Part shown: in pieces, positions 1-38,984 of the stretch | Position numbering within the stretch: position 1 is the first letter of the stretch | Layout: each line of letters opens with the position of its first letter | Virus record (IMG/VR): IMGVR_UViG_3300042305_002088 | Coordinates: 39,279 to 103,278 of that record | DNA: 64,000 nucleotides | Reading direction: 5' to 3' (one strand) | DNA from: a virus | The notes under the pieces: model-generated | The model's database searches: none | Seen by the model: the letters and a program-made list of their open reading frames with translations, nothing else | What the model was told of the DNA's origin: nothing | Program-made: the position numbers and the translations under genes

Positions 1-1
1 C

Positions 2-847
2 GATATTGTTTTTAGAGAAGATATTCCTGACTTTAATCGTAACAAAGATGCGTTTGTAGCAGATGAAATTCGTAACTCTATTTTAGAAATTCTTGATATG
101 TGTGACGAGGTTACAGTTACCTGTGACTTTATGAAAGATTACTTTAACGAAAAAATGGGAGTAAAAAAGACTACTGTTATTCCAAACTATCTTACAAGAT
201 GGTGGTTTGACAGATATTACAACCTCGATAAGCTTGTTAAGAACTTTGAGAAGAATAAAAAGAAGCCTGTTGTATCTATTTTTGCCTCTGGTACCCACGT
301 CGACGTCACTAATCGTACAGGGCAAAAAGATGACTTTGAAATGGTTGTACCCGCTATTATTAAAGCTAGAAAAGATTTTAGGTGGAAGTTCTACGGGTGT
401 TATCCTCTACCTCTAAAGCCGTTTATTGACAGAGGTGAAATAGAATTCTGTGAATGGACACCACTTCCAGAGTTTCCAGGCGCTATGGCAGAGTCTGGTA
501 CTCAAGTAACCTTTGCTGCTCTTCAAGATAATAACTTCAATAGAGCTAAATCTAATATTAAACTCTTAGAAGCTGCTGCTTTGGGCATTCCTTGTATTTG
601 CCCAGATATGGTTACATATAAGGACGCTAAGCTCAAATATTCAAATCCTGCAGAATTTATTGACTGTATTAAAACTGCTACTAAGAACCAACATACCTAT
701 GCTGACTATTGTAAGAAAGCACGTGAGTATGCTGATGGCTTTTGGTTAGAAGATGAAAAGAACCTTATGAAACATCATGAGGCTTATTTCACACCTTACG
801 GTTCACCTGACCGCAAATATTTGCTTGAGACTAATCCTAAGTCATAA
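2..847 (+). CDS. Glycosyltransferase (GT-B/GT4-like), 5'-truncated by window edge
   Basis: Frame is open from nt 2 (DIVFREDIPDFN...), upstream of the annotated ATG at 98. GT-B-type motifs 'CDEVTVTC', 'VIPNY' and 'FNRAKSNIKLLEAAALGIPCI' (KS-x-K-x-x-E-A-x-A-x-G-x-P). Confidence 0.8.
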   Translation, partial: DIVFREDIPDFNRNKDAFVADEIRNSILEILDMCDEVTVTCDFMKDYFNEKMGVKKTTVIPNYLTRWWFDRYYNLDKLVKNFEKNKKKPVVSIFASGTHVDVTNRTGQKDDFEMVVPAIIKARKDFRWKFYGCYPLPLKPFIDRGEIEFCEWTPLPEFPGAMAESGTQVTFAALQDNNFNRAKSNIKLLEAAALGIPCICPDMVTYKDAKLKYSNPAEFIDCIKTATKNQHTYADYCKKAREYADGFWLEDEKNLMKHHEAYFTPYGSPDRKYLLETNPKS

Positions 848-861: not shown

Positions 862-3408
862 GTGTATAGGAACGCATCATATAACCCACGAGAAGGAACT
901 GTTTATCTTAGAACTTGGACTGAAGACGGTGTAAGAATTGATACTGAAGTTCCGTTTACTCCTTATCTCTTTACAGAAAGTAAAGATGCTAAGGATGCTA
1001 CTTCTATTTTCAAAACACCCCTAAAGAAGCATTATTTCAAGAATACCTTTGAGCGTACTAAATTTGTTCAAGAAACTAAGAATCCAAGATTATTCGGTAA
1101 TCTATCAGTGGATCAGCAGTTCTTAGTAGATAGATTCAAAGAGGAAGTTCATAAACCTGAGTTCAGTCAGTTCCCTCTCAAGGTTTACTTTATAGATATC
1201 GAAACATACTCACCAGGTGCGTTTCCTATTCCTAAGTATGCAAAAGACCCAGTCAATCTTATTACAGTATTAGATACACTTAGCGGTAAAATACACACTT
1301 GGGGTCTCAGAGAAGACTACAAACCAAAGCTTGATAACGTCACATACTATTGCTGTAAGACCGAAGGTGAGTTGTTTGAAAGATTTGTTAATTTTTGGAA
1401 GAAAGATCCTCCAGATATCTTAACTGGTTGGAACACCGAGCAGTTCGATATTCCCTATATCATTAATCGCGCTAAGAACTTACTCGGTGAAGACTTTATT
1501 CGTCAACTCTCACCCGTCGGTCAAGTTCATTACAGAGAAAATTTTGCCAAGTTTGGTAAAGAAATGGGTAGATGGTATATCTCCGGGGTTAGCTGTTTGG
1601 ACTACATGGAGATTTATAAAACTTATTCAAAGGGTGATAGAGAGTCGTTCTCTCTGAATTATATCTGTGAATATGAACTTGGTGAAGGTAAACTTGCTAT
1701 TAATGCTACTAACCTTTCATCTCTATCTGAAACTGACTGGGAAAACTTTGTAGATTATAACATTCAAGATGTTGATCTGCTTCGTAAACTTGAAGAGAAG
1801 CTTAACTATCTTAAGATTATTCGTCTCTTATCCTATAAAGGTTGTACCAACTTCGAAAGAGCTTTAGGTAAGGTATCGATTGTAACTGGTGCTATGACAC
1901 TTCAGGCACAGAAACAAGGCTACATTATTCCTACCTTTAAGAATGAGACAGAAAGAGAGTCCCTTGAAGGTGGCTATGTCCGTGATCCGGAAAGAGGCCT
2001 CAAAGAGGCTATCGTATCCTTTGACGTTAACTCTCTATACCCGAATACCATTATCACTCTTAATATTGGTTCTGAGACTAAACTTGGTAAAATTGTAACT
2101 GGGGATCCAGAATACGATAAAGAGGTTGAGATCAAGCTTGAGTCCGGAGGAATGTTTAAAGTAACTGTAGCTAAACTTAAGAAGTTTCTAAAAGACGAAA
2201 ACGTAGCTCTATCAAAGGCTGGTGTACTTTACTCTCAGAAATTTAAAGGTGTTTGCCCTAACTTGATTAATAGTATCTACGAAGAGCGAGTGTACGCTCG
2301 AAATGAGATGATTAAACTCAAGAAGACAAAACAAAAGGATAAAGAGACTGTTGGTAAGATTCAGTATTTTGATACTCTTCAATATACGTTAAAGATTCTT
2401 CTTAACTCCATCTACGGAACGTTTGCTAACAAGCATTCAGCGTTCATGGATATTGATAACGCCTCGTCTATTACTCTAACCGGTCAAGCAGTTGCTAAAG
2501 CTGGTGGAGCTATTGTAGATGCCTGGGCTAAAGAAAAGTTCGGTATTGATGAGTCACTTATTATTGCTGGTGACACCGACTCTCTTTATACCACAATTCA
2601 GCCTATTCTTAATAAGCTTAATTTACCCCTTGTAAAAGACGGTACTATTACCCAAGAGGCTCATAAGATTATTAATGCCATGGAAAAGCATCTCAATACT
2701 GAGATCATTAACTGGGCTAAAACCGATCTTAACTCTGCTGATCCTCGATTCGTCTTTAAACGAGAAGCTATTGCTGATGTAGGCTCCTTCTTAATGAAGA
2801 AACGCTATATTATTCATATCCTGGATGAAGAAGGTGTTCCTACTAATAAGTTCAAGTACGTAGGTGTTGAACTAGCTCGGTCAACAACCCCTAAGGAAGT
2901 TAAGGCTTTGATTAAGAAAACCATTGATACGGCCTTTCTATCAAAGGATGTTAAAAAGACTAACGAAGTGTTCCGAGAAGCTTATGACCACTTTAAAAAT
3001 TTAGATATAACCGAGGCTGCCTTTCGCAAAGCTGTTAAAGAGCTTGAGAAGTATTCAGGTGGCGCCTCACTTCATAAGTTTAACCTCGGTACACCCTGCC
3101 ACGTTAAAGCGGCATTAGCTTACAACTTCCTTCTCGAAAAAATGGGCATACAGACCAAATACGAACAGATTAATTCAGGGCAGAAGATCAAATATTTTTA
3201 TGCGATGAAAAACCCCTATGGCTTAGATGCCGTAGCGTTTGCAAGTGAGTATCCAAAAGAGTTTCATGAGATTAAAATCGATTACGATAAAATGTTTGGT
3301 AAGATTGTTGTACCACCAATTGAGGCTGTTTACGAGGCTATTGGATGGAGAATACCTGTGATCGGTAAAGAAGTACAAACTGATTTATTTGATTTATTTG
3401 GAGATTGA
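862..3408 (+). CDS. gp43: B-family DNA polymerase (T4 gp43-like)
   Basis: Exo I DIET, Exo II NTEQFDIPY, Exo III YNIQD. Pol motifs DVNSLYP, KILLNSIYG, IAGDTDS, KKRY. C-terminal clamp-binding-like QTDLFDLF. Confidence 0.97.
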   Translation: MYRNASYNPREGTVYLRTWTEDGVRIDTEVPFTPYLFTESKDAKDATSIFKTPLKKHYFKNTFERTKFVQETKNPRLFGNLSVDQQFLVDRFKEEVHKPEFSQFPLKVYFIDIETYSPGAFPIPKYAKDPVNLITVLDTLSGKIHTWGLREDYKPKLDNVTYYCCKTEGELFERFVNFWKKDPPDILTGWNTEQFDIPYIINRAKNLLGEDFIRQLSPVGQVHYRENFAKFGKEMGRWYISGVSCLDYMEIYKTYSKGDRESFSLNYICEYELGEGKLAINATNLSSLSETDWENFVDYNIQDVDLLRKLEEKLNYLKIIRLLSYKGCTNFERALGKVSIVTGAMTLQAQKQGYIIPTFKNETERESLEGGYVRDPERGLKEAIVSFDVNSLYPNTIITLNIGSETKLGKIVTGDPEYDKEVEIKLESGGMFKVTVAKLKKFLKDENVALSKAGVLYSQKFKGVCPNLINSIYEERVYARNEMIKLKKTKQKDKETVGKIQYFDTLQYTLKILLNSIYGTFANKHSAFMDIDNASSITLTGQAVAKAGGAIVDAWAKEKFGIDESLIIAGDTDSLYTTIQPILNKLNLPLVKDGTITQEAHKIINAMEKHLNTEIINWAKTDLNSADPRFVFKREAIADVGSFLMKKRYIIHILDEEGVPTNKFKYVGVELARSTTPKEVKALIKKTIDTAFLSKDVKKTNEVFREAYDHFKNLDITEAAFRKAVKELEKYSGGASLHKFNLGTPCHVKAALAYNFLLEKMGIQTKYEQINSGQKIKYFYAMKNPYGLDAVAFASEYPKEFHEIKIDYDKMFGKIVVPPIEAVYEAIGWRIPVIGKEVQTDLFDLFGD

Positions 3409-3423
3409 TTTATTATTACAACT

Positions 3424-4254
3424 ATGCTTATATCACACGAAACACCTGTATCGTTGCTTCCATACTCTTGGGGCTATAATGATTACTGCTATTGTTTAGT
3501 ACATCTATTGCCTGAGAATCAAAAATACAAAGACTTCTATTTTAAGTCTGTAGAATACGGACGCAGAGTACTTTTAGACAATTCTATTTTTGAGCTCGGT
3601 ACTGCTTTTGATCCTGAGCAGTTTGCTTATTGGGTTAAAGAGCTTAAGCCTTTTGAATATGTTATCCCTGATGTCTTAGAAGATACTACAGGTACTTGTA
3701 TGTCCATGGATAACTTCTTGTCCAAGTATTCCGATCTCCCTGGTCGTAAGATCGGTGTTGTTCAGGGCAAGACATATCAAGATATTGTTGACTGTTATCG
3801 TTTTGTAGCACCAAAGGTTGATAAAGTCGCCATTTCTTTTGATTACTCGTATTATCTAGAAAATTGCGATTGGTCTCAGATTAATGTTCCCGGTTTTGTT
3901 AAGAAGCAGGAAGATAACAAATGGCTAAAGTACGCTATTGGTAGAGTTAAACTACTGGATGACCTCTATGACGATGACGTTCTTGATGTAAATAAGCCAC
4001 ACCACCTACTTGGGGCATCATTACCTTGGGAGTTTGCTCTGTATGCAGATAATTACCTTAGTGAATATATTGAAACTATTGATACTTCAAATCCAATTGT
4101 CGCTGGTATTTTGGGGAAAAAGTACGAACCTGAATACGGTCTGTCAGAAAAATGGTCAGTGAAGCTTGTTGACTTTATTGATGCTGAATTGACCACCCAG
4201 CAAATTTACGATTCGTTCTGGAATATTACACAGTTTAGAAATCTATGCCGGTAG
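3424..4254 (+). CDS. dpdA: Divergent TGT-fold 7-deazaguanine transglycosylase (DpdA-like, probably DpdA3 type)
   Basis: TGT/DpdA-like motifs LLDNSIFE (cf. DSGGF), IPDV, GVVQG, HHLLG and IDTSNP. Clustered with queF, folE and a formyltransferase. Confidence 0.75.
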   Translation: MLISHETPVSLLPYSWGYNDYCYCLVHLLPENQKYKDFYFKSVEYGRRVLLDNSIFELGTAFDPEQFAYWVKELKPFEYVIPDVLEDTTGTCMSMDNFLSKYSDLPGRKIGVVQGKTYQDIVDCYRFVAPKVDKVAISFDYSYYLENCDWSQINVPGFVKKQEDNKWLKYAIGRVKLLDDLYDDDVLDVNKPHHLLGASLPWEFALYADNYLSEYIETIDTSNPIVAGILGKKYEPEYGLSEKWSVKLVDFIDAELTTQQIYDSFWNITQFRNLCR

Positions 4255-4793
4255 CACAGCCCTGGGTTACGTTCTTTAGTCAGACCGGTTCTGAGATTTA
4301 TAAAATATCTAAAAGAATTAATCGTGTTCCAGATGTTATTGTAACAAATAAAACTAAAGATAAAGTTTTAGAAATTAACGAAGATTTATTCTTTGAATAT
4401 GTAGATAAAATTGTTTGGTTACCTAAAAAACCTACTATAGAAGAATACAGACAAGTTATTCCTAAAGGCGCTTTTGTAACTCTTCATGGCTGGTTAAGAA
4501 TTATTCCTCCTGAGATTTGTCAAGAGTTTGAAATTTATAATTTACATCCTGCTCCAATCCATTTAGAAGGTTATGACAAATATAAAGGTAAAGACCCTCA
4601 AGTTAGAATCTTTGAAGATAAAGCTACATATTCCGGAAATGTTATTCATGAATGTATTGCCGAGCTTGATGCAGGAAAGATTCTAGCTCAAAATCAATTT
4701 GATGTTCGAGGTTTTGATCTTGATATGGTTTTTAAACTAACACATTCTAAAGCTACGGAACTTTGGTGTAGCTTTTTAGAAAATAGAATATAA
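4245..4793 (+). CDS. dpdN: PurN-like formyltransferase (DpdN-like, preQ1 N-formylation)
   Basis: GAR-transformylase motifs FSQTGS, LHGWLRII, NLHPA...KG, GNVIH...ELDAGKILAQ. Overlaps the dpdA stop, suggesting coupling. Confidence 0.75.
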   Translation: MPVAQPWVTFFSQTGSEIYKISKRINRVPDVIVTNKTKDKVLEINEDLFFEYVDKIVWLPKKPTIEEYRQVIPKGAFVTLHGWLRIIPPEICQEFEIYNLHPAPIHLEGYDKYKGKDPQVRIFEDKATYSGNVIHECIAELDAGKILAQNQFDVRGFDLDMVFKLTHSKATELWCSFLENRI

Positions 4794-4804
4794 TATAGAG
4801 AGTT

Positions 4805-5353
4805 ATGAGAGTTTCGTTTACAGGTGCGCAGAGTACTGGTAAGACTACATTACTGAATAAGTGTAAAGAAATCTACAAAGATTATAAATTTGTAGACGAG
4901 GTTACTCGTTATGTTCGTCGGACTTATGACGTTAAGATTAACGAAATTGGTGGTACTGAAACTCAGCTTTACATTTTAGCTGAACATATTAAGAACCATC
5001 TTAAACTAGATGAAAACTTGATGCTTGATCGTTGTATCTTAGATGGTTATGTTTATACAAAATATCAAGTGGAACAGGGTAAAGTAAAAGAAGATGTTTT
5101 ACGAGCTTTTAATGGAGTGTTTAATGCACTCTTTGATAGACTTGACTACGTCTTTTATACTGATCCGTCGGATGTAAAATTAGTAGATGACGGAGAACGT
5201 TCTGTCGATTTTAAATTTAGAGATGATATTATTGTACTTTTTGAAGATTTGATTACACATAAAATATCTCCTAAGAATAGAGAAAAGATTATCCGGCTTA
5301 AAGGCTCTGTCGAACAGAGAATGAAAACAATTGAAAAATATTTAAAACAATGA
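4805..5353 (+). CDS. P-loop nucleoside-monophosphate-kinase-like protein (AAA_28/thymidylate-kinase-like)
   Basis: N-terminal Walker A GAQSTGKTT, 'LDRCILD' kinase motif, 'DDGER'. ATGA overlap with queF. Confidence 0.75.
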   Translation: MRVSFTGAQSTGKTTLLNKCKEIYKDYKFVDEVTRYVRRTYDVKINEIGGTETQLYILAEHIKNHLKLDENLMLDRCILDGYVYTKYQVEQGKVKEDVLRAFNGVFNALFDRLDYVFYTDPSDVKLVDDGERSVDFKFRDDIIVLFEDLITHKISPKNREKIIRLKGSVEQRMKTIEKYLKQ

Positions 5354-6294
5354 ACACTAACTTAAACGACATCGCATCCAAGTCACTCGGTTCTTCAGCA
5401 TCTTACGCTGTTTATACTGACAGTCATGACGCTTCACTTCTCAACCCAATGCCTAGAAAGCTCGCCCGAGACGGCTGGAATATTAAAGGTACTGAGTTTG
5501 TAGGGTACGACACTTGGCATTGTCATGAATCTACTTTTCTTTTAAACAACGGAGCCCCTATCGCGGGTACTTTAAAATACACATATTCTTCTGACTCAGA
5601 GTTTATGGTAGAATCAAAGTCAGCTAAACTTTATCTTAATACATTTGATATGTGTAAGATGGGTCAGTCCGTTGATACAGCTATTCAAAATTACGAATTA
5701 CAGGTTAAGGCTGATCTTGAAAAAGCTTTAGAAACTTCAGTTGATGTTAAGTTTTTTAAATCTGGTGACGACGAGATGGGGTTATTTCCTATGACAGGTT
5801 ATCTCGATCTTCAAACCTTTTTAGGTAAAGATCTTGAAGAGTTAGAAATTAACGATTACAACGCTGAGAGTAATCACTTAGAGTTTGAAAAAGCTAATTT
5901 CTCAGGTTATGGTTATAGTGTTAACGAAAATAAAGCACTATTTGCAAACAAATACTTTACTAATGCACTAAGATCTCGTTGCCGTCATACGAAGCAAAAA
6001 GATACAGGAGCTGCTTACATCTCTATCAATTCCTTAGATTCAGTCATTAAACCAGCCTCCCTCTTTAAACAGATTATCTCTCTGAGAGAGGTTAATGAGT
6101 TTCATGAATTCTGTGCAGAAAAACTTTATACAGAAATTATGAAGTGCCCGGAGGTTGAATCCTGTTGTGTCACTTTACTTTATTCTAGGAGAGGCTCTTT
6201 AGATATTAATCCTACCCGAGCTACATCCTTCGATATGCTACCACCTGCACTGTACAATACAAAATACTACACTAAAAAGGCAATGGGGCAGTAG
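5350..6294 (+). CDS. queF: NADPH-dependent preQ0 reductase QueF (bimodular type)
   Basis: QueF motif VESKSAKLYLNTF, catalytic Cys/Asp region LRSRCRHTKQKD, FHEFCAE, YSRRGSLDINP. Confidence 0.93.
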   Translation: MNTNLNDIASKSLGSSASYAVYTDSHDASLLNPMPRKLARDGWNIKGTEFVGYDTWHCHESTFLLNNGAPIAGTLKYTYSSDSEFMVESKSAKLYLNTFDMCKMGQSVDTAIQNYELQVKADLEKALETSVDVKFFKSGDDEMGLFPMTGYLDLQTFLGKDLEELEINDYNAESNHLEFEKANFSGYGYSVNENKALFANKYFTNALRSRCRHTKQKDTGAAYISINSLDSVIKPASLFKQIISLREVNEFHEFCAEKLYTEIMKCPEVESCCVTLLYSRRGSLDINPTRATSFDMLPPALYNTKYYTKKAMGQ

Positions 6295-6329: not shown

Positions 6330-6704
6330 ATGGCTAACACAGAAAATAAAATTGCAGTATTCTTCGACTCAGTCGGTAGAACAATCCTCGGAGAAAAATT
6401 AGAAGATAAAACAACTGATAAAGTTCTTTCAATTAAGAACCCAGCTGTTGTTCACATTATGCCTAATCAGCAAACAGGCCAACTTCAGCTTCAAATTCTT
6501 CCTTTGTTCTTTAAGGAGTTCTTAGCTGATAAAGATTCTGGTACTATTTGGAGCTACAATCGAGAAAACATCACTGAAGCTGTTGACGTAACCTTTGACT
6601 TTAAACTTGAAGCTCAATACCGTCAAATCTTTGCTTCAGGCCCAGCCCCTGCACCTCAGCAGCCACAAGGTTCACCAGAAGTTATTAAACTTTTTGACGA
6701 ATAG
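6330..6704 (+). CDS. Hypothetical protein
   Basis: Clean 124-aa ORF, beta-rich N-terminus, Pro/Gln tail. Confidence 0.65.
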   Translation: MANTENKIAVFFDSVGRTILGEKLEDKTTDKVLSIKNPAVVHIMPNQQTGQLQLQILPLFFKEFLADKDSGTIWSYNRENITEAVDVTFDFKLEAQYRQIFASGPAPAPQQPQGSPEVIKLFDE

Positions 6705-11161: not shown

Positions 11162-11827
11162 ATGTTAAGAAGTAAAAAGAAACTCCAATACGCTAACCAC
11201 AACGTAATTCATTCTCAAGAAGAGATTAATGAGCTTATTGAGAATGGAGCTAAAGCTTACGAAGCATATCTTGATGCCTTAGGTTTTGACTGGCGCAATG
11301 ACCCTAATAGTTCAGATACACCTCGTCGTGTTGCCAAGGCATTTGTTACAGACCTAGCTATGGGCTGTTATACAGAACCACCTAAAGTGACTGCCTTTGA
11401 TAACGTAGATAGTTACGATGGTATGGTCTGTCAGAATAACATTAAGGTTGTTTCGATGTGCTCTCATCACCATGCACCTTTTATGGGTGTTGCGCACGTT
11501 GCCTATATACCTGCTGCAAATGGTAAAGTAATTGGTCTCTCGAAGCTCAATCGTATTGTTGATTGGTTTTCACGCCGCCCTCAAGTTCAGGAGAACCTTA
11601 CTATGCAGATTCACCAGTATATTGATGCAGTCTGCGAGAAGAATAAAGGAGTAGCTGTCTTAATTGAAGCTAATCATACTTGCTGTTCTAATCGCGGTAT
11701 TAAACATGATAGTACTATGAGGACTGCTAGAATGTCTGGATCTTTCTTAGATGAAAAAGATAATTCAAGGGCTGAGTTTTACAAATTTGTTGAATTTGCC
11801 CAAAACAATAAAGGCCACATTTCGTAA
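11162..11827 (+). CDS. folE: GTP cyclohydrolase I
   Basis: [41 protein letters not shown]. Confidence 0.96.
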
Positions 11828-13730: not shown

Positions 13731-15512
13731 GTGCCAAAAAACGAAGAGGTATTTAAAGATCCCTACGAAGATGTTATAATAGAGAACCCTATAGACGATT
13801 CTCAGTTCTATAGAGGTGATAAAAATGTACCAAAAGAGGATGCCCAGTTTGAATGGACTCCTAAGATGGTTAAGGAGCTCAAGAAGTGTAAAGAGAATAT
13901 CATACACTTTGCTGAGAACCATTTCTGGATTGTAAACCTCGATCGAGGTAAGATGAAGATTGAGCTCTATAAAGCTCAAAAACGTGCCCTTAAGTCTCTT
14001 GCCGACAATAGGTTTGTCTGTGTCTTAGCCTCCCGTCAATGTGGTAAGACGACGATTACTACGATATACGCGCTCTGGAATACCTGCTTCTTTGACGACC
14101 AAAGAGTTATTATTGTTGCCAATAAAGAAAATACTGCAATTAACATTTTTAAGAGAATAAGAATGGCTTATGAATTATTACCGAACTATCTCAAACCCGG
14201 TGTTAAAGAGTATGGTAAGACGGGTGTTACTTTTGCTAACGGTTCTAGTATAGGTATTAGTACCACGACGTCGACAGCAGCTCGTGGTGATACGGCTTCT
14301 ATTCTTTGTATTGACGAGGCAGCTTTCATTGACCCTCACTTTATGGATGAGTTCTGGAAATCAGTTATCCCGATTGTTTCATCTGGTAAAAAGACAAAAA
14401 TTTTCATGGTCAGTACCCCAAACGGTTCAGGTAACAAGTTTTACGAAATATATTCTGGTGCTGAAAAGGAAACTAATGGTTGGACAGCTGAAAGAATTGA
14501 TTGGTGGGATGTTCCCGGAAGAGGTGAAAAGTGGCGAAAGCAGATGGTAGCAGCTCTTGGTTCTGATGAAGCTTTTCAACAAGAGTTTGGTAATACGTTT
14601 CTTGATGCTGGTAATTCTGCAGTCGGAGCTTCGGTTATTGAGAGATTTAAAGAAAATAAAAAACCTGCCATCCATACAAGCGATGAAGGTGCGTACAAAG
14701 TCTTTGAGGTCCCAGATATTAACAAACTTTACGCAATCGGTGTTGACGTCGGAGAGGGTATTGGGAGAGCCTCCTCTGTGGCCCAAGTACTTGATGTTAC
14801 AGACTTAACTGACATTAAACAGGTAGCTGTGTACGGAACTAATACTGTTGAACCTTATCACTATGCTAACAAATTAGTTAATCTTTGTTCCCAATGGGGT
14901 AACCCACCTCTGTTAGTTGAGAGAAATAACTGTGGTGCACAAATTATTGATGCCCTTTTCCACAAACACATGTACGAAAAAATTGTATCATGTTCCAAGT
15001 TAGCCAACACCGGGTCATTTTCTAATACCAGACATCTAGGAATTCTTTCACATAATAATCTCCGCTTTGCAGGTGTTGCTAATATGCGTTACTGGGTCAA
15101 CTTCCTACAGGTTGTCCATATTAATGATCTCGACACAATTAAAGAGTTTGAAACTTTCATCCGTTACCCAAACGGAACTTACAGAAAGAAGAATGACCAA
15201 TTTTACGATGACCGAATTATGTCTCTTGTTTGGGCTTTGTTTATTTTAGAACCAGAAATCTGCCAACAATATTTTGAAGTTAAAGAGTTTGATGACCAAA
15301 ATAAACCTCTACGCATTGGAAACCTCGATTACTATGAACCTGATAAAAGTCTTTATAAGGTAAAAGACTTAAATAATAGTAACAATATAACAACTTTGGG
15401 TAACACTGAAGAGTCAATGTTTCAGCCATTAGTTTCAGAAAAAGAATTTGAAAAAATGTATGATACATCGGATTTAGACGATTTAATGTCTCAAGGTTGG
15501 AAACCAATGTAA
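13731..15512 (+). CDS. gp17: Terminase large subunit (gp17)
   Basis: ASRQCGKT, LCIDEAAF, VSTPNG, FQQEF, nuclease motifs GVDVGEG and DDRIMS. Confidence 0.97.
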   Translation: MPKNEEVFKDPYEDVIIENPIDDSQFYRGDKNVPKEDAQFEWTPKMVKELKKCKENIIHFAENHFWIVNLDRGKMKIELYKAQKRALKSLADNRFVCVLASRQCGKTTITTIYALWNTCFFDDQRVIIVANKENTAINIFKRIRMAYELLPNYLKPGVKEYGKTGVTFANGSSIGISTTTSTAARGDTASILCIDEAAFIDPHFMDEFWKSVIPIVSSGKKTKIFMVSTPNGSGNKFYEIYSGAEKETNGWTAERIDWWDVPGRGEKWRKQMVAALGSDEAFQQEFGNTFLDAGNSAVGASVIERFKENKKPAIHTSDEGAYKVFEVPDINKLYAIGVDVGEGIGRASSVAQVLDVTDLTDIKQVAVYGTNTVEPYHYANKLVNLCSQWGNPPLLVERNNCGAQIIDALFHKHMYEKIVSCSKLANTGSFSNTRHLGILSHNNLRFAGVANMRYWVNFLQVVHINDLDTIKEFETFIRYPNGTYRKKNDQFYDDRIMSLVWALFILEPEICQQYFEVKEFDDQNKPLRIGNLDYYEPDKSLYKVKDLNNSNNITTLGNTEESMFQPLVSEKEFEKMYDTSDLDDLMSQGWKPM

Positions 15513-15513
15513 T

Positions 15514-16122
15514 ATGCCAGATAACGACCTTTGCGAGACACCTCAAGCTACCCAGCAATCAGTTCTTAATAGATCAAGTAAAGATAAATTTTTGCTTGTT
15601 TTAAATTTACCTACCATTCTTAAAGAAAGATCTAAAACCGATTCTAAAATTAAACTTGACCCTTTACAGATGAGTGTGCACGGAACTATAGTTCCTGCTA
15701 TTCAGGTACCAGCTAATGAAGTTCGTTTTGCAGGACAATCTTACAATGTATCCTCTCACTCTCGCCCAAACTATCAACCACTAACTGTTAATTTTATTGT
15801 TGACAACAAATTTTATAATTATTGGCTACTTTGGAAATGGTTAGATGTACTCAATACATCCCGTGGTAGCTTGTATGACGGTACAAAAGAAAAAAACAAA
15901 ACAAGACAATATAACACAGAACAAGGAGATCTATTAGAATATCAATCTAATTTAACTGTTTTTAGTTTAAACGAATACAATCAAAGAAGTGTGGAATTTT
16001 TATATTTTAACGCTTTTATAACCAATCTCGGAGCTATTAATTATAGTTATAGAGATTCAGAAATTATAGAAGCCACTGCAGAATTTCAGTTTAGTCAGCT
16101 TAAAATTAATTTATTAAGCTAA
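15514..16122 (+). CDS. Tail tube terminator / completion protein (gp3-like)
   Basis: Tube-fold motifs 'YQPLTVNFIVD...NY..LWKW' and 'FITNLGAINYS..DSE'. Confidence 0.7.
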   Translation: MPDNDLCETPQATQQSVLNRSSKDKFLLVLNLPTILKERSKTDSKIKLDPLQMSVHGTIVPAIQVPANEVRFAGQSYNVSSHSRPNYQPLTVNFIVDNKFYNYWLLWKWLDVLNTSRGSLYDGTKEKNKTRQYNTEQGDLLEYQSNLTVFSLNEYNQRSVEFLYFNAFITNLGAINYSYRDSEIIEATAEFQFSQLKINLLS

Positions 16123-16141
16123 ATTTCGATAAAAAAATATA

Positions 16142-16158
16142 CCCAGAAACAATAAATA
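16142..16158 (+). promoter_or_regulatory. Extended late promoter CCC-N6-AATAAATA (tail sheath)
   Basis: Same architecture at 55697-55713 and 62043-62059. Confidence 0.55.
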
Positions 16159-16171
16159 ATAATATAACAAT

Positions 16172-18376
16172 ATGGCTATTCAAAGACCGCAAAGAAGAAT
16201 TAATTCACCGGGTGTACAGATCGACGAAACTGATTTGTCCCAATATTTAAACCCAACACCAGGTACAACAGTATTTGTTGCTGGTTATGCCCCACAAGGC
16301 CCGGTAGATGAAGTATTAAGTATTACTTCAAATTCTGAGTTAGATCAAGTTTTCGGTCTTCCGCAGACACCTGCTGAGCGTTATTTTTATCACTCATGTA
16401 AGGAAATTTTAAATTCACCAGGTAACTTACTTGTTACTCGTCTACCATATGGTTCTGGTGGAGGTGAAGTTTTTGGCGGTTCATACGGAGCATTATTTTA
16501 CCCTGTTTTAAGCTCAGGTACAACAATAGGTACAGGAATCTCGGGTGTCGGTGCACTTTCAGCAACAGAGCTTTCAGCAACTACAATAACCGGTTATCAG
16601 ATTGGTCAACCAACACATCTTACATTAAATGACGATCAATACGACAATATTATTCAAGGTAACGTTACCTGGTCGTCTTTATCATCTACTCAACTAACAC
16701 CAAGTCTTTCTACAACTGGATCAGTATATAATATTAACAACACAGGTATTATTGTTCTCAACTCTTCTAAAACAACAATTAATGAAGCATTTGAAGGTTA
16801 TTACATAACATTTGCTGATAATACAAATTTTGGTCCTGATTCTGATTACAACGCAGTAACAAGTCTGTATAGTCTTACTGCAGCAAATGATTTTACACAA
16901 CTACCATCAACTCGTCTCGGTTTTGCATTATCAGCTGCTTCCGGTACTACAAGAGATTCAATCTCTGAAGTTATTGAGAAGACACCAACATACAATTTTG
17001 GTGATTCGTACTATAAAGATTCTCTGATCGTTAATATCTTTAAAATTCGTAATTCGATTTATGAGCCAGAAAATTTAACATACTCGTTAGCAGAAACCCA
17101 CATCGGTTCTTTTGATCCTAATAAACAAATCGTAGCCGATGGTGGCGGTACACCGAAAACGTTTTACTTAGAAAATATCGTTAACCGTGGTTCAAATAAT
17201 ATAAAGCTACTAATTAACCCAGCACTAACAGATAGAACTAATTGGGTATCCCTAAGTGCTAATACACCAGCAAGAGCTGTTACGATTAATTCAGCAGCAC
17301 GAGCCATATTCCCGGTAGGTTCATATTTACCAACATACGCTTATCAAAGAGGTAAAGATATCGGTAATGTAGTAACAAAACTACAGCGTGCTTTAACCCT
17401 AGTTGAATTACCTGAAACTATTAATATCGATGTACTCGTTGATGCAGGCCTTTCAACAATTCATGCAAATAGTATTACAACCAGTAACGGTGACAAGTAT
17501 TATGATGATAAAACCTTCCAAGTTACTACAAATCTTACCTCAAGTATTGAGTTATGGCAGTCAATTACAAATACATTTAATACATTTGTAACACTGACTC
17601 GTAAAGATTGTGTATTTATTTCTGATCCACTACGTCAAATATTTGTAAACGGTGAAGATACTAAAACACTCTCACTTAAAACTAAAAACTTTACAACAAA
17701 CGTTTACACACCTCTCAAAAACAGCTATGGGAGTATAAATTCAAATTACTTAGCAGCATATGCTAACTGGGTTAAGATATACGACTCAACAATTGATAAG
17801 CGCGTATGGGTACCTATTTCAGGTTTTGTAGGAGCTGTTTATGCTCGTTCTGATGCACAAACTCAACAGTGGTTTGCACCAGCTGGCCTAAATCGCGGTA
17901 TTATTGCTAACGCTCTTGATTTAGCTATCAACCCCAACCAAAAGCAAAGAGATAACCTTTACACAATTGCTCTTAACCCTGTTGTATTCTTCCCAGGAGA
18001 CGGTTATGTAGTATTCGGTCAAAAGACCTTACAAACAAAACCAACAGCATTTGACAGAGTAAATGTAAGACGTCTGTTCTTAGCTCTGGAAAAAGCAACT
18101 CTTAAAGCTCTTAAGTACTTCGTATTTGAACCTAACACTGAGTTTACACGCTCACGTCTCAAAGCAACCCTTACACCAATTTTTGAATTGGCTAAGAATA
18201 CAGAGGGTGTTTATGACTACCTCATTGTTTGCGACGAGCGTAACAATACATCAGATTCAATCGATCGTAATGAGTTACTAGTAGATATCTATATCAAGCC
18301 AGTTAAGGCTGCAGAGTTTATCTTAGTCAACTTCATTGCAACACGCACTGGTCAAAACTTTGAAGAATTGATCTAA
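16172..18376 (+). CDS. gp18: Contractile tail sheath protein (gp18)
   Basis: SPGVQIDETDLS, WFAPAGLNRG, FGQKTLQ, FDRVNVRRLF, VFEPN, IYIKP. Confidence 0.96.
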   Translation: MAIQRPQRRINSPGVQIDETDLSQYLNPTPGTTVFVAGYAPQGPVDEVLSITSNSELDQVFGLPQTPAERYFYHSCKEILNSPGNLLVTRLPYGSGGGEVFGGSYGALFYPVLSSGTTIGTGISGVGALSATELSATTITGYQIGQPTHLTLNDDQYDNIIQGNVTWSSLSSTQLTPSLSTTGSVYNINNTGIIVLNSSKTTINEAFEGYYITFADNTNFGPDSDYNAVTSLYSLTAANDFTQLPSTRLGFALSAASGTTRDSISEVIEKTPTYNFGDSYYKDSLIVNIFKIRNSIYEPENLTYSLAETHIGSFDPNKQIVADGGGTPKTFYLENIVNRGSNNIKLLINPALTDRTNWVSLSANTPARAVTINSAARAIFPVGSYLPTYAYQRGKDIGNVVTKLQRALTLVELPETINIDVLVDAGLSTIHANSITTSNGDKYYDDKTFQVTTNLTSSIELWQSITNTFNTFVTLTRKDCVFISDPLRQIFVNGEDTKTLSLKTKNFTTNVYTPLKNSYGSINSNYLAAYANWVKIYDSTIDKRVWVPISGFVGAVYARSDAQTQQWFAPAGLNRGIIANALDLAINPNQKQRDNLYTIALNPVVFFPGDGYVVFGQKTLQTKPTAFDRVNVRRLFLALEKATLKALKYFVFEPNTEFTRSRLKATLTPIFELAKNTEGVYDYLIVCDERNNTSDSIDRNELLVDIYIKPVKAAEFILVNFIATRTGQNFEELI

Positions 18377-27944: not shown

Positions 27945-27973
27945 ATTATACTATCAATGACCGGAACTGCCAA
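27945..27973 (-). promoter_or_regulatory. sigma70-like promoter for gp44
   Basis: Minus strand TTGGCA-17nt-TATAAT, 6 nt before ATG. Confidence 0.6.
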
Positions 27974-28427
27974 ATCCTTTTTCCCCTCGTTCAGTTTCAT
28001 GAACGGTTTCAGACCAAAACGAATCTAAAGTAACAAGAGGGTAGAGAACAAATTGTGCAACTCTGTCACCTTTCTTAACTGTATAATCGTTATCAGAATG
28101 ATTAAGAATACGAATACCTAAATCACCTCTATATTGATTATCAATAATTCCGTTGAAGGCTTGAAGACCGTATTTGAACTGTAAACCAGAACGAGACTCT
28201 ACTCTAATCCAAAACCCCGGTGGAAGATAAGCCAGTTTAAGACCAACAGGTACAATAGTGGCACCTCTTGCAGGAATAACAGTATCTTCAACTGCTGTTA
28301 CATCATAACCAGAATCTCCTGTTTGAGAGTCTTTATGATTACGTTCAGGTAGAACTGCATCAGGATGAGTTTTAAGAAACTTTACCCCTGAATTAGGACT
28401 TGTTGTATATGTGAATGAACTATTCAT
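27954..28427 (-). CDS. dut: Trimeric dUTPase
   Basis: SGYDV, RSGL, GIIDNQYRG, GDRVAQ, RGEKGFGSSG. Confidence 0.96.
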   Translation of the reverse strand: MNSSFTYTTSPNSGVKFLKTHPDAVLPERNHKDSQTGDSGYDVTAVEDTVIPARGATIVPVGLKLAYLPPGFWIRVESRSGLQFKYGLQAFNGIIDNQYRGDLGIRILNHSDNDYTVKKGDRVAQFVLYPLVTLDSFWSETVHETERGEKGFGSSGH

Positions 28428-38979: not shown

Positions 38980-38984
38980 TAATA

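What the first reader, a model, noticed from the sequence alone, without database searches (positions are those of the whole stretch)
4805..5353. Nucleotide kinase inside the deazaguanine operon suggests a pre-replicative modified-dGTP pathway
Seen: a P-loop NMP-kinase-like gene lies between dpdN and queF and overlaps the queF start (ATGA). Post-replicative base exchange on DNA would not need a kinase. Inference: the divergent DpdA acts on dGMP or a related nucleotide, the kinase phosphorylates d(f)PreQ1-MP, and the adjacent gp43 incorporates it. This parallels the T4 hmC logic, which uses a dedicated dNMP kinase. I do not know of a characterised kinase in this pathway.
Basis: inference. Interest (0 to 1): 0.75.

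Follow-up and report, generated by a model that had tools for sequence, protein, structure and literature searches.

The report
Kinase partner of phage DpdA3
A small nucleoside/nucleotide kinase gene sits inside this phage's gene set for replacing guanine with a 7-deazaguanine. It accompanies the base-swapping enzyme DpdA3 in every relative examined, which suggests but does not prove that the new base is built on free nucleotides before DNA is copied, not swapped into finished DNA as published.

Summary
Window 4805-5353(+) encodes a 182-aa P-loop kinase (Pfam AAA_28). It lies between a DpdN-like formyltransferase and QueF, and its stop overlaps the QueF start (ATGA).

- Among 50,697 phage records, homologues occur only in Flavobacterium immuto phages and in Campylobacter phages of Firehammervirus type. 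All but one of those phages also carry DpdA3, and these two groups are reported to replace all G.
- In IMG/VR, 79 of 79 unique kinase loci with at least 3 kb upstream carry DpdA3. Conversely, 88 of 88 DpdA3 loci with at least 3 kb downstream carry the kinase.
- phiST-type DpdA3 pairs with a different kinase family (AAA_18).
- DpdA3 modules in other lineages also carry a dNTP-cleaving enzyme of varying fold: MazZ-like dATP/dGTP diphosphohydrolase, MazG, PRA-PH, dUTPase/DCD-like or HD. None was found in this half-complete contig.

The fold is nearest NadR nicotinamide-riboside kinase and deoxynucleoside kinases, with thymidylate kinases close behind. Whether the substrate is a nucleoside or an NMP is therefore unresolved.

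Best reading (about 0.55): a pre-replicative route, dGTP to dGMP to deazaG-dNMP (DpdA3) to dNDP (kinase). Nothing here is biochemical.

Cui et al. 2023 never mention the kinase and propose post-replicative insertion. This scan has noted the same idea in at least 41 other genomes.

The parts
862..3408 (+). Family B DNA polymerase (T4 gp43-like), directly upstream of the module
   Evidence: Pfam DNA_pol_B E 1.1e-28 and DNA_pol_B_exo1. PHROG 262 E 1.1e-196.
3424..4254 (+). DpdA3-type transglycosylase (minimal TGT barrel, 276 aa)
   Evidence: 45.6% identical to the annotated DpdA of immuto_2-6A and 40% to CP220 gp056. AF2 pLDDT 92.4. VIA Z 17.6 to ArcTGT 1iq8 and 17.3 to DpdA 7ui4. TGT-like motifs LLDNS, PDV, VVQGK, HHLLG and DTSNP are conserved, and there is no Zn motif (mapping onto TGT residues is from memory).
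4245..4793 (+). DpdN-like formyltransferase; overlaps the dpdA3 stop by 10 nt
   Evidence: Pfam Formyl_trans_N E 1.8e-8. phmmer E 1.9e-43 to immuto26A_67.
4805..5353 (+). The kinase in question (182 aa, AAA_28)
   Evidence: Invariant residues in 43 diverse homologues: G7 G12 K13 T15 R35 Q54 D75 R76 D80 Y84 R132 G167 R172.
4823..4846 (+). Walker A / P-loop GAQSTGKT (residues 7-14)
   Evidence: Read from the sequence. G7, G12 and K13 are invariant.
5027..5056 (+). DRCILDGYVY: Walker-B-like Asp plus Arg (D75-R76), D80 and Y84. Aligns with the DRxxxSxxxY stretch of thymidylate kinase and the (D/E)RS stretch of dNKs.
   Evidence: HMM alignments to 2pbr and 8puu. Invariance.
5186..5203 (+). DDGERS lid motif (residues 128-133), shared with the NadR RNK lid (YIDDGFRH)
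   Evidence: Alignment to 6gye. The lid is placed at residues 304-318 of L. lactis NadR in PMC7221760.
5350..6294 (+). Bimodular QueF (preQ0 to preQ1 reductase); its start overlaps the kinase stop (ATGA)
   Evidence: Pfam QueF_N E 1.3e-20 and QueF E 1.5e-9. Present in 105 of 113 unique kinase loci.
6330..6704 (+). Conserved 124-aa ORF of unknown function after the module
   Evidence: No Pfam or PHROG hit. Syntenic in the window clade and in L053-L055. Atlas search uninformative.
11162..11827 (+). FolE (GTP cyclohydrolase I), first step of 7-deazaguanine synthesis
   Evidence: phmmer E 7.8e-72 to immuto FolE and 1.1e-61 to phiST FolE.
27954..28427 (-). Trimeric dUTPase-family gene. It is the only dNTP-pyrophosphatase-type gene found in the contig and is probably an ordinary dUTPase; it is listed only as a candidate.
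   Evidence: PF00692 E 1.9e-26 at G000:67238-67606(-).

Best explanation
The gene encodes a small-molecule kinase of the NadR-RNK / deoxynucleoside-kinase / thymidylate-kinase fold. It is a dedicated core component of DpdA3-type 7-deazaguanine systems.

Proposed pathway:
1. [quoted passage not shown]
2. A dNTP pyrophosphatase, where present, turns dGTP into dGMP and empties the dGTP pool.
3. DpdA3, a stripped-down TGT barrel, swaps guanine for the deazaguanine on the free deoxynucleotide rather than on DNA.
4. DpdN formylates the aminomethyl group.
5. The kinase adds a phosphate at the 5' end of the product. The most likely step is dNMP to dNDP; the alternative is deoxynucleoside to dNMP.
6. 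Host NDK makes the triphosphate, and the phage polymerase incorporates it in place of dGTP.

Shown here: gene identity, fold, conservation, strict synteny, and the recurrent presence of dNTP hydrolases in related modules.

Inferred: every substrate assignment and the order of steps.
For: Phage collection:
- Of 50,697 phage records, only 21 hold a homologue. All are immuto or Firehammervirus-type Campylobacter phages.
- In every such record that carries DpdA3, the kinase is its immediate neighbour.

IMG/VR loci:
- Of 113 unique kinase loci, 79 of 79 with at least 3 kb upstream carry DpdA3. Of unique DpdA3 loci with at least 3 kb downstream, 88 of 88 carry the kinase.
- The order DpdA3 > [DpdN] > kinase > QueF holds across kinases only 40-54% identical to this one.
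- The pair persists when DpdN and QueF are absent (L053-L055, CP220). The kinase's role is therefore independent of the 7-substituent.

phiST-type systems:
- phiST, reported as 100% dDG, has a different kinase family (AAA_18) abutting its DpdA3. In L162-L165 that kinase is fused to the DpdL domain.

dNTP hydrolases of five different folds sit in DpdA3 modules:
- PF18909 MazZ-like in 12 loci.
- MazG in phiST and PRA-PH in immuto.
- DCD-like in L162-L165.
- HD in CP220 gp055.
- In addition, a kinase-dUTPase fusion exists (P0241/P0273).
- MazZ is known to supply dGMP to PurZ in Z-genome phages (PMC8342488).

DpdA3 itself:
- It keeps the TGT barrel and lacks the Zn subdomain. Only 227 of the 413 residues of DpdA align.
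- It is acidic, with median pI 5.3.
- Cui et al. could not get DpdA3 to work alone in E. coli (PMC10516641).

From established knowledge: all characterised complete base replacements (T4 hmC, the Z genome) are pre-replicative, and 7-deaza-dGTP analogues are good polymerase substrates.
Against: - There is no biochemical evidence of any kind.
- No MazG, HD, PRA-PH or PF18909 gene was found in this contig or in four larger relatives, all of which are incomplete.
- The nearest folds are nucleoside kinases: NadR RNK Z 18.7 and human dGK 17.2, against thymidylate kinases at 14-16. The NMP-kinase step is therefore not favoured by structure.
- All characterised members of the TGT superfamily that I know of act on polymers, and Cui et al. 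2023 interpret DpdA3 as a DNA transglycosylase.
- The loci were fetched by similarity to the kinase or to DpdA3, so more distant kinase homologues in other contexts were not sampled.
- A second paralogue in this genome and in CP220 is not DpdA3-linked.
- The apparent DpdN-kinase fusions (P0222, P0248) resolve into two overlapping ORFs in 31 related loci.
Confidence: 0.55

Rival explanations
1. DpdA3 exchanges guanine on finished DNA, as published. The kinase is an accessory nucleotide-supply enzyme that is only co-expressed with the module. It might be a general dNMP or thymidylate kinase, or a guanosine/deoxyguanosine salvage kinase feeding GTP to FolE.
For: - Cui et al. 2023 propose post-replicative insertion for all DpdA families.
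- All characterised TGT-family enzymes that I know of act on polymers. The top structural matches are ArcTGT, DpdA and TGT.
- The family is annotated 'thymidylate kinase', and a paralogue sits next to a dUTPase in CP220.
- A PRTase in these genomes could salvage the released guanine under either model.
Against: - A general supply kinase should occur widely. In fact it was found in only 21 of 50,697 phage records, all from immuto or Firehammervirus-type phages, and all but one of those phages carry DpdA3.
- It is strictly adjacent to DpdA3 in 79 of 79 and 88 of 88 loci.
- Partly substituted Queuovirinae phages such as 9g lack it.
- A dGTP-cleaving enzyme inside the module would harm a phage that still polymerises dGTP.
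- Complete replacement by base exchange on DNA has no characterised precedent (my knowledge).
Confidence: 0.2
2. The phosphoribosyltransferase makes a 7-deazaguanine ribonucleotide from the free base and PRPP, as in toyocamycin and tubercidin biosynthesis. The kinase then makes the diphosphate, ribonucleotide reductase makes the deoxy form, and DpdA3 plays a secondary or proof-reading role.
For: A type I PRTase is encoded in this genome (G000 3102-3599), in the immuto cluster, about 5 kb upstream of DpdA3 in L037 and beside the DpdL-kinase fusion in L162. PRTases acting on preQ0 or CDG are known from Streptomyces deazapurine antibiotics (my knowledge).
Against: The PRTase is not part of the conserved core: it is not among the frequent neighbours of the kinase. 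DpdA3 is universal, and this model leaves it without a necessary role. Guanine salvage explains the PRTase equally well.
Confidence: 0.08
3. The protein is a nicotinamide riboside kinase, as JGI names many homologues. It would act in NAD+ salvage or counter-defence like the RNK half of phage NadR in NARP3.
For: It matches Pfam AAA_28, the best structural matches are NadR RNK domains (Z 18.7 and 18.5), and it shares the DDGxR lid motif. NARP3 shows that phages use RNK-NMNAT enzymes (PMC13464706). The second paralogue in this genome lies two genes from a cytidylyltransferase-like (NMNAT-type) gene.
Against: This copy has no adjacent NMNAT or PnuC. It is embedded in the DpdA3-QueF operon in more than 100 contigs. 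Identity to NadR is only 16%. It carries a DR motif (D75-R76), as thymidylate kinases and dNKs do and NadR does not.
Confidence: 0.04
4. The kinase acts after replication on DNA or on the modified base itself. It would activate a group by phosphorylation, as 5-hmdU DNA kinases do in thymidine hypermodification.
For: In other hypermodification systems, P-loop kinases phosphorylate bases in DNA (my knowledge; not tested here). So a kinase in a modification cluster does not by itself imply a nucleotide-pool route.
Against: The kinase is present whatever the final base is: ADG in CP220, and predicted preQ1 or formyl-preQ1 in other modules. phiST-type DG systems carry an analogous AAA_18 kinase instead. 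These bases share no phosphorylatable group at position 7. The fold and motifs are those of small-molecule nucleoside/nucleotide kinases.
Confidence: 0.05

Closest known systems
[quoted passage not shown]
   Same: Same gene order: DpdA3 - DpdN - kinase - QueF (immuto26A_65, 67, 68, 69). Identities to this window: DpdA3 46%, DpdN 42%, kinase 33%, QueF 35%. Both genomes also encode a PRTase and FolE, QueD and QueE.
   Different: The published description does not mention the kinase (annotated 'thymidylate kinase') or the neighbouring PRA-PH pyrophosphatase, and it assigns DpdA3 to DNA. Here the module sits in a T4-like replisome operon behind a family B polymerase, where immuto has PolA. No pyrophosphatase or QueC was found in the available half-genome.
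dADG system of Campylobacter Firehammervirus phages (CP220, CPt10; Crippen et al. 2019, cited in PMC6884629 and PMC10516641)
   Same: DpdA3 (gp056, 40% identity) is directly followed by the homologous kinase (gp057, 33%). G is reported to be completely replaced. A modified-dGTP route was proposed for these phages.
   Different: CP220 has no QueF or DpdN. An HD+AAA_33 fusion (gp055) precedes DpdA3. A second AAA_28 paralogue (gp006) lies next to a dUTPase.
T4 hydroxymethylcytosine pathway (gp56 dCTPase, gp42 dCMP hydroxymethylase, gp1 dNMP kinase)
   Same: The inferred logic is the same: destroy the canonical dNTP, modify the monophosphate, re-phosphorylate it with a phage kinase and incorporate it with the phage polymerase.
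   Different: The enzymes are unrelated. The modifying step here would be a base exchange by a TGT-fold enzyme, not a transfer onto the base. T4 gp1 did not appear among the top 50 structural matches. The pathway here is inferred, not shown.
Z-genome cluster DatZ / MazZ / PurZ (PMC8342488)
   Same: A (d)GTP or dATP diphosphohydrolase is co-conserved with the modifying enzyme and supplies dGMP. Related DpdA3 modules carry a PF18909 MazZ-2/DUF550-type gene.
   Different: By my recollection, Z phages rely on host guanylate kinase and encode no kinase of their own. This window's contig shows no MazZ-like gene.
NadR ribosylnicotinamide kinase domain / phage NARP3 (PMC7221760, PMC13464706)
   Same: Same Pfam family (AAA_28). 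It is the best structural match (6gye Z 18.7, rmsd 2.6 A, 168 residues aligned) and shares the DDGxR lid motif.
   Different: Identity is 16%. The protein stands alone, with no NMNAT domain or PnuC neighbour, and carries a DR motif that NadR lacks. Its genomic context is deazaguanine, not NAD.

Membership tests
Pfam AAA_28 (PF13521; NadR-RNK-like P-loop kinases) | HMM match above the curated gathering score | tested here: met
   58.2 bits against a cut-off of 27, covering profile positions 1-164 of 164.
Pfam AAA_28 (PF13521; NadR-RNK-like P-loop kinases) | Walker A GxxxxGK[ST], a Walker-B Asp and a lid with DDGxR | tested here: met
   GAQSTGKT (residues 7-14), D75 and D128-D129-G130-E131-R132. 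These are invariant or nearly invariant in 43 homologues and align to the NadR lid.
Pfam AAA_28 (PF13521; NadR-RNK-like P-loop kinases) | Fold of the NadR RNK domain | tested here: met
   VIA Z 18.7 (6gye; rmsd 2.6 A, 168 aligned) and 18.5 (8x7f).
Bifunctional NadR / NARP3 (NR kinase working with NMNAT and PnuC) | Fused or adjacent NMN adenylyltransferase and an NR transporter | tested here: not met
   The protein stands alone. Its neighbours are DpdN and QueF, and neighbour clustering over 74 loci found no NMNAT or PnuC.
Bifunctional NadR / NARP3 (NR kinase working with NMNAT and PnuC) | Nicotinamide riboside kinase activity | not testable with these tools
   Needs an enzyme assay.
Thymidylate kinase (PF02223) | HMM match above the gathering score | tested here: not met
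   No PF02223 hit at E<=0.01 for the window protein. The immuto homologue scores 17.3 bits against a cut-off of 27. A profile of the family reaches A. aeolicus TMPK only at E 3e-7.
Thymidylate kinase (PF02223) | DR[YH] motif and TMPK fold | tested here: inconclusive
   The motif is DRC, with the aligned Tyr (Y84) kept. Z to TMPKs is 14-16, below the nucleoside kinases.
Deoxynucleoside kinases (PF01712, dNK/dCK/dGK) | HMM match above the gathering score | tested here: not met
   No hit for the window protein. Some homologues score 23.8-31.8 bits against a cut-off of 27.
Deoxynucleoside kinases (PF01712, dNK/dCK/dGK) | Invariant catalytic Glu after strand 2 (the base that activates the 5'-OH) | tested here: inconclusive
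   The nearest acidic residue, E32, is kept in most of the displayed homologues but replaced by S, N or G in about a quarter of them. The mapping was made by eye from HMM alignments, not by superposition.
Deoxynucleoside kinases (PF01712, dNK/dCK/dGK) | Fold | tested here: met
   Foldseek top hits are dCK, dNK and dAK at E 5e-8 to 1e-6. VIA Z: 17.2 for human dGK, 16.2 for Dm-dNK, 16.0 for dAK.
DpdA3-type 7-deazaguanine DNA system (Cui et al. 2023) | A DpdA3 homologue | tested here: met
   Window 3424-4254 is 45.6% identical to immuto DpdA and 40% to CP220 gp056. TGT fold confirmed.
DpdA3-type 7-deazaguanine DNA system (Cui et al. 2023) | preQ0/preQ1 synthesis genes (FolE, QueD, QueE, QueC, QueF) and DpdN | tested here: inconclusive
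   FolE, QueD, QueE, QueF and DpdN are present. QueC was not found in the 103-kb contig, which is about 49% complete.
DpdA3-type 7-deazaguanine DNA system (Cui et al. 2023) | Complete replacement of dG by a 7-deazaguanine in virion DNA | not testable with these tools
   Uncultured IMG/VR contig. Needs LC-MS of phage DNA.
5-hmdU-DNA-kinase-type base-activating kinases | Homology to that family, and a phosphorylatable group on the base | not tested
   No reference sequence was at hand. The argument against is indirect: the kinase is present whatever the 7-substituent.

The most novel reading that the evidence does not exclude
DpdA3 is not a DNA transglycosylase. It is a deoxynucleotide (dGMP) : 7-deazaguanine transglycosylase. 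Together with a dGTP-cleaving enzyme and this kinase it forms a portable three-enzyme cassette that rewrites the dGTP pool. Under this reading, every phage genome with 100% deazaguanine is built before replication, and the published post-replicative model for this subfamily is wrong. A TGT-fold enzyme exchanging bases on a free nucleotide would be a new enzyme activity.
Probability: 0.45. Interest if true: 0.85.

Novelty: new variant of a known kind. Interest (0 to 1): 0.68.

Why it matters
How some phages replace every guanine with a 7-deazaguanine is an open question. The current paper on the DpdA3 subfamily proposes base exchange on finished DNA. Its authors could not reconstitute DpdA3 in E. 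coli, and they never discuss the kinase.

DpdA3 keeps a kinase beside it in every locus examined here, often together with a dNTP-cleaving enzyme. That turns the question into a short list of assays.
- Test the kinase on modified versus canonical nucleosides and nucleotides.
- Test DpdA3 on dGMP versus DNA.
- Co-express DpdA3 with the kinase and a pyrophosphatase.

If the nucleotide-pool route holds, three things follow.
- The TGT superfamily gains a new reaction.
- Complete substitution is explained.
- A compact gene set for making G-substituted DNA becomes available, comparable to the Z-cluster.

If it fails, the kinase still needs a role, because its linkage to DpdA3 is among the tightest in the module.

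Tried and rejected
- Megablast of the module against the phage collection gave no match, so there is no close cultured relative.
- MazG (PF03819), HD (PF01966), PRA-PH (PF01503), PF18909 and QueC were sought in the window's contig. All but QueC were also sought in four larger relatives. None was found, but all these contigs are 35-70% complete, so absence is uninformative.
- DCD and dUTPase searches found only an ordinary-looking dUTPase 22 kb away.
- hhalign among the small ORFs that fill the slot between DpdN and the kinase (c16, c23, c25, orf124, c45) and the MazG references showed no relationship above 50% probability. c16 matches only PHROG 1485 (unknown function) and c25 matches nothing.
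- An ESM Atlas search of orf124 was uninformative.
- The apparent DpdN-kinase fusions P0222 and P0248 are two overlapping ORFs in 31 related IMG/VR loci. I therefore do not count them as Rosetta-stone evidence.
- DpdA3-kinase fusions, reported by earlier notes of this scan, were not found. Longer forms of DpdA3 were two DpdA3-QueF fusions. The only longer form of the kinase was a kinase-dUTPase fusion. The C-terminal half of P0195 is neither DpdA3 nor QueF.
- The genomic context of the kinase-dUTPase fusion could not be obtained. There was no relative in IMG/VR, and the metagenome scan returned only a dUTPase-only hit.
- Complex prediction of DpdA3 with the kinase gave no answer (score 0.02 against a mark of 0.32). 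This is neither for nor against binding.
- The kinase tree was only a quick tree with a weak backbone. The placement of Kin2 and CP220 gp006 outside the DpdA3-linked kinases rests on long branches and is not reliable.
- Crippen et al. 2019 could not be read because it is not held.
- Deciding between a nucleoside and an NMP substrate from motifs was attempted and abandoned. R35, D75-R76 and R132 have counterparts in both kinds of kinase.
Full report
**Observation**

Window 4805-5353(+) is a 182-aa ORF. Its stop overlaps the ATG of the next gene as ATGA. The gene order, all on the + strand, is:
- family B DNA polymerase, 862-3408
- a 276-aa protein with no Pfam hit, 3424-4254
- a Formyl_trans_N protein, 4245-4793
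- the ORF in question
- a bimodular QueF, 5350-6294
- a 124-aa unknown ORF
- UvsX
- DnaB

The ORF has a Walker A motif (GAQSTGKT). It matches Pfam AAA_28 over the whole profile (58.2 bits, cut-off 27) and PHROG 2107 'thymidylate kinase'. It is a real, conserved gene: 1202 clusters at 90% identity match it, as do 1104 clusters at 50% identity.

**What the surroundings are**

The window is the right-hand 64 kb of a 103,278-bp IMG/VR contig estimated to be 49% complete. It has no close cultured relative.
- The 276-aa protein is a DpdA3. It is 45.6% identical to the annotated DpdA of Flavobacterium phage immuto_2-6A, 40% to CP220 gp056 and 24% to phiST gp042.
- Its AlphaFold2 model (pLDDT 92.4) matches ArcTGT (Z 17.6), the DNA preQ0 insertase DpdA (Z 17.3, 227 of 413 residues aligned) and bacterial TGT (Z 15.5).
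- An alignment of 24 diverse DpdA3 sequences keeps the motifs LLDNS, PDV, VVQGK, HHLLG and DTSNP. By my reading, from memory of the TGT literature, these correspond to the catalytic and base-binding motifs of TGT. The protein ends about 55 residues after the last motif and has no Zn-binding cysteines.
- The family is acidic, with median pI 5.3.
- FolE lies at window 11162-11827.
- Upstream of the window, the same contig holds QueD, QueE, a type I phosphoribosyltransferase and a second AAA_28 paralogue.
- QueC was not found.

**What kind of kinase it is**

The model (pLDDT 94.9) is a P-loop kinase with a lid.
- Foldseek ranks deoxynucleoside kinases first and thymidylate kinases just behind.
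- The exhaustive aligner gives NadR RNK domains Z 18.7 and 18.5, human dGK 17.2, Dm-dNK 16.2, dAK 16.0, vaccinia TMPK 15.9 and other TMPKs 14-15.6.
- A profile of 43 homologues reaches A. aeolicus TMPK (E 3e-7), L. lactis NadR (6e-7) and a deoxyadenosine kinase (6e-6) about equally.
- Invariant residues are G7, G12, K13, T15, R35, Q54, D75, R76, D80, Y84, R132, G167 and R172.
- The DDGxR motif aligns with the NadR lid. The DR motif is shared with TMPK and dNKs and is absent from NadR.
- The acidic residue nearest the position of the dNK catalytic Glu (E32) is replaced by S, N or G in about a quarter of the displayed homologues.

I could not decide from sequence or fold whether the acceptor is a nucleoside 5'-OH or a nucleoside 5'-phosphate. 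'NMP-kinase-like' is therefore an acceptable but not a secure label.

In the annotated phage collection:
- tblastn against 50,697 phage records finds the kinase in 21 records only: Flavobacterium immuto phages and Campylobacter phages of Firehammervirus type.
- These are the same phages that carry a close DpdA3. The exceptions are CC_R7 and one of the two vB_CcoM-IBB_35 contig records. Both match at the position of the second, non-DpdA3-linked paralogue, and neither was found to carry DpdA3.
- In the DpdA3 carriers the two genes are neighbours. In immuto the order is DpdA3 - small ORF - DpdN - kinase - QueF. In CP220 it is an HD+AAA_33 fusion (gp055) - DpdA3 (gp056) - kinase (gp057).
- Phage 9g (Queuovirinae; about 27% dG+ reported) and the deoxyinosine-containing Fletchervirus NCTC12673 are in the collection and gave no hit.

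In IMG/VR:
- Four scans, three seeded with the kinase or a kinase fusion and one with DpdA3, gave 113 loci with unique kinases.
- All 79 loci with at least 3 kb upstream carry DpdA3.
- All 88 unique DpdA3 loci with at least 3 kb downstream carry the kinase.
- QueF is present in 105 loci and DpdN in 85.
- An unbiased clustering of all ORFs within four genes of the kinase ranks QueF, DpdA3 and DpdN as its top partners. The rest are structural genes.
- The pair survives where DpdN and QueF are missing (L053-L055, CP220).

The kinase's task therefore does not depend on the group at position 7 of the base. That points to the sugar-phosphate end of a nucleoside or nucleotide.

One caveat applies. 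The loci were selected by similarity to these two proteins, so kinase homologues below about 35% identity were not sampled.

**A second, different kinase family in phiST-type systems**

Cellulophaga phage phiST is reported as 100% dDG. Its DpdA3 gene (gp042) directly follows a 165-aa AAA_18 P-loop protein (gp041). Upstream of that come DpdL (gp040) and a MazG (gp039). Cui et al. set this P-loop gene aside because no other deazaguanine phage had a homologue. In four IMG/VR relatives the DpdL domain and the AAA_18 kinase are one polypeptide. A DCD/dUTPase-fold gene takes the place of MazG, and in one relative a PRTase is also present. Recruitment of a different kinase-like family to the same position argues that DpdA3 systems need a kinase as such.

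None was found in this contig or in four larger relatives, all of which are incomplete. Related modules do carry one:
- In 12 of the 113 loci, a 110-136-aa gene matches PF18909, 'dATP/dGTP diphosphohydrolase, N-terminal' (E 1.2e-20), and PHROG 801. Where the gene order was printed, it lies between DpdN and the kinase.
- immuto has a PRA-PH-type pyrophosphatase just upstream of DpdA3.
- phiST has MazG, its relatives have a DCD-like enzyme, and CP220 has an HD domain.
- A kinase-dUTPase fusion exists (6 sequences, 2 contigs).
- The second AAA_28 paralogue of CP220 is followed by a dUTPase.

In Z-genome phages, MazZ converts (d)GTP to (d)GMP for the next enzyme (PMC8342488). A dGTP-cleaving enzyme makes sense only if dGTP is to be replaced, not if G is first polymerised and exchanged later.

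**Most likely mechanism (confidence about 0.55)**

1. The free deazaguanine base is made from GTP.
2. dGTP is cleaved to dGMP.
3. DpdA3 exchanges the base on the free deoxynucleotide.
4. DpdN formylates. This would be chemically close to PurN acting on a ribose-5-phosphate amine.
5. The kinase re-phosphorylates.
6. Host NDK completes the triphosphate.
7. Whichever polymerase the phage has (PolB here, PolA in immuto, Pol III alpha in phiST) incorporates it.

The PRTase can recycle the released guanine to GMP and so back to GTP. That fits either model.

Shown here: identities, folds, synteny and distribution. Inferred: all substrates and the order of steps. If the kinase is a nucleoside kinase, the exchange would be on deoxyguanosine and a second kinase would be needed. 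Two paralogues exist here and in CP220, but that is speculation.

**Rivals**

- Post-replicative exchange with an accessory supply kinase (0.2). It does not explain the strict linkage, the restriction to DpdA3 phages or the dGTP hydrolases.
- A PRTase-ribonucleotide route (0.08). The PRTase is not part of the conserved core, and this route leaves DpdA3 without a role.
- Nicotinamide riboside kinase, as in NARP3 (0.04). It fits the Pfam family and the JGI names, but not the context. It may fit the second paralogue, which lies two genes from a cytidylyltransferase-like gene.
- A DNA- or base-activating kinase like 5-hmdU DNA kinase (0.05). This is unlikely because the kinase is present whatever the 7-substituent.

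**Comparison with what is known**

The system is a member of the DpdA3-type deazaguanine systems, closest to the fdPreQ1 system of immuto. The kinase is a new functional branch of AAA_28. It fails the thymidylate-kinase and dNK Pfam thresholds and lacks the NadR architecture.

In the held literature no paper describes a kinase in this pathway. Cui et al. 2023 conclude that all 7-deazaguanine modifications are post-replicative and report that DpdA3 was inactive in E. coli. Hutinet et al. 2019 note that a modified-dGTP route had been proposed for Campylobacter phages; I could not read that paper. Earlier notes of this scan reached the same reading on at least 41 other genomes. I re-derived the linkage independently but could not confirm their reported DpdA3-kinase fusion.

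**Verdict**

The linkage is real, very tight and unpublished as far as I could search. The pre-replicative mechanism is the best explanation but rests wholly on comparative genomics. Novelty: a new variant of a known kind. Interest: 0.68.

Noticed in passing
outside the window: G000:C1:13380-14012(-) with neighbours 14015-14773(-), 14958-15404(-), 15719-16330(-) (locus L005): A second AAA_28 paralogue (210 aa, 27% identical to the first) lies next to QueE and QueD and two genes from a cytidylyltransferase-like gene. It could be a second kinase step of the deazaguanine route or a split NadR/NARP3-like NAD+ salvage pair. CP220 also has a second paralogue (gp006), placed directly before a dUTPase.
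   Followed up: partly
L162:5082-5996 and L163:3489-4457 (IMG/VR relatives of phiST): The DpdL domain (predicted CDG decarboxylase) and an AAA_18 kinase are fused into one protein. In L162 it sits directly before DpdA3 and is preceded by a PRTase; in both loci a DCD/dUTPase-fold gene precedes it.
   Followed up: partly
proteins P0271 (568 aa) and P0272 (531 aa): These are DpdA3 fused to bimodular QueF in one polypeptide. They were the only longer forms of DpdA3 found.
   Followed up: no
proteins P0198 (332 aa) and P0225 (312 aa): These homologues of the kinase are fused to a C-terminal GNAT acetyltransferase domain. They may point to an acetylated deazaguanine derivative that has not been described.
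   Followed up: no
L026 / L029 (IMGVR_UViG_3300007216_000090 and 3300007214_000017): The module is a mosaic. The kinase (83%) and QueF (87%) are close to the window's, but DpdA3 (53%) and DpdN (37%) are distant. An extra 116-aa ORF (PHROG 1485, unknown function) lies before the kinase. This suggests recombination inside the module.
   Followed up: no
L053-L055 (e.g. L055:10001-11433): A sister clade of T4-like contigs has PolB - DpdA3 - kinase - orf124 - UvsX with no DpdN and no QueF. Its final base is probably different (preQ0, ADG or CDG type).
   Followed up: no
window 6330-6704 (+): A 124-aa ORF is conserved immediately after the module in this clade and in L053-L055. It has no Pfam, PHROG or Atlas lead.
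   Followed up: partly
L067:6857-7399 and relatives (cluster c25, about 180 aa): An unknown conserved protein sits between DpdN and the MazZ-like gene in about 8 loci. It has no family hit.
   Followed up: no
Campylobacter phage CC_R7 (PQ092953.1:6554-7087): This 180-kb Campylobacter phage matched the kinase at one place only, at the position of the second, dUTPase-side paralogue of its relatives. No DpdA3 hit was found in it.
   Followed up: no
window 1-847 (+) (ORF G000 38866-40125, 419 aa): The gene just upstream of the polymerase has a glycosyltransferase-like C-terminal part (PHROG 7162, E 4e-16).
   Followed up: no
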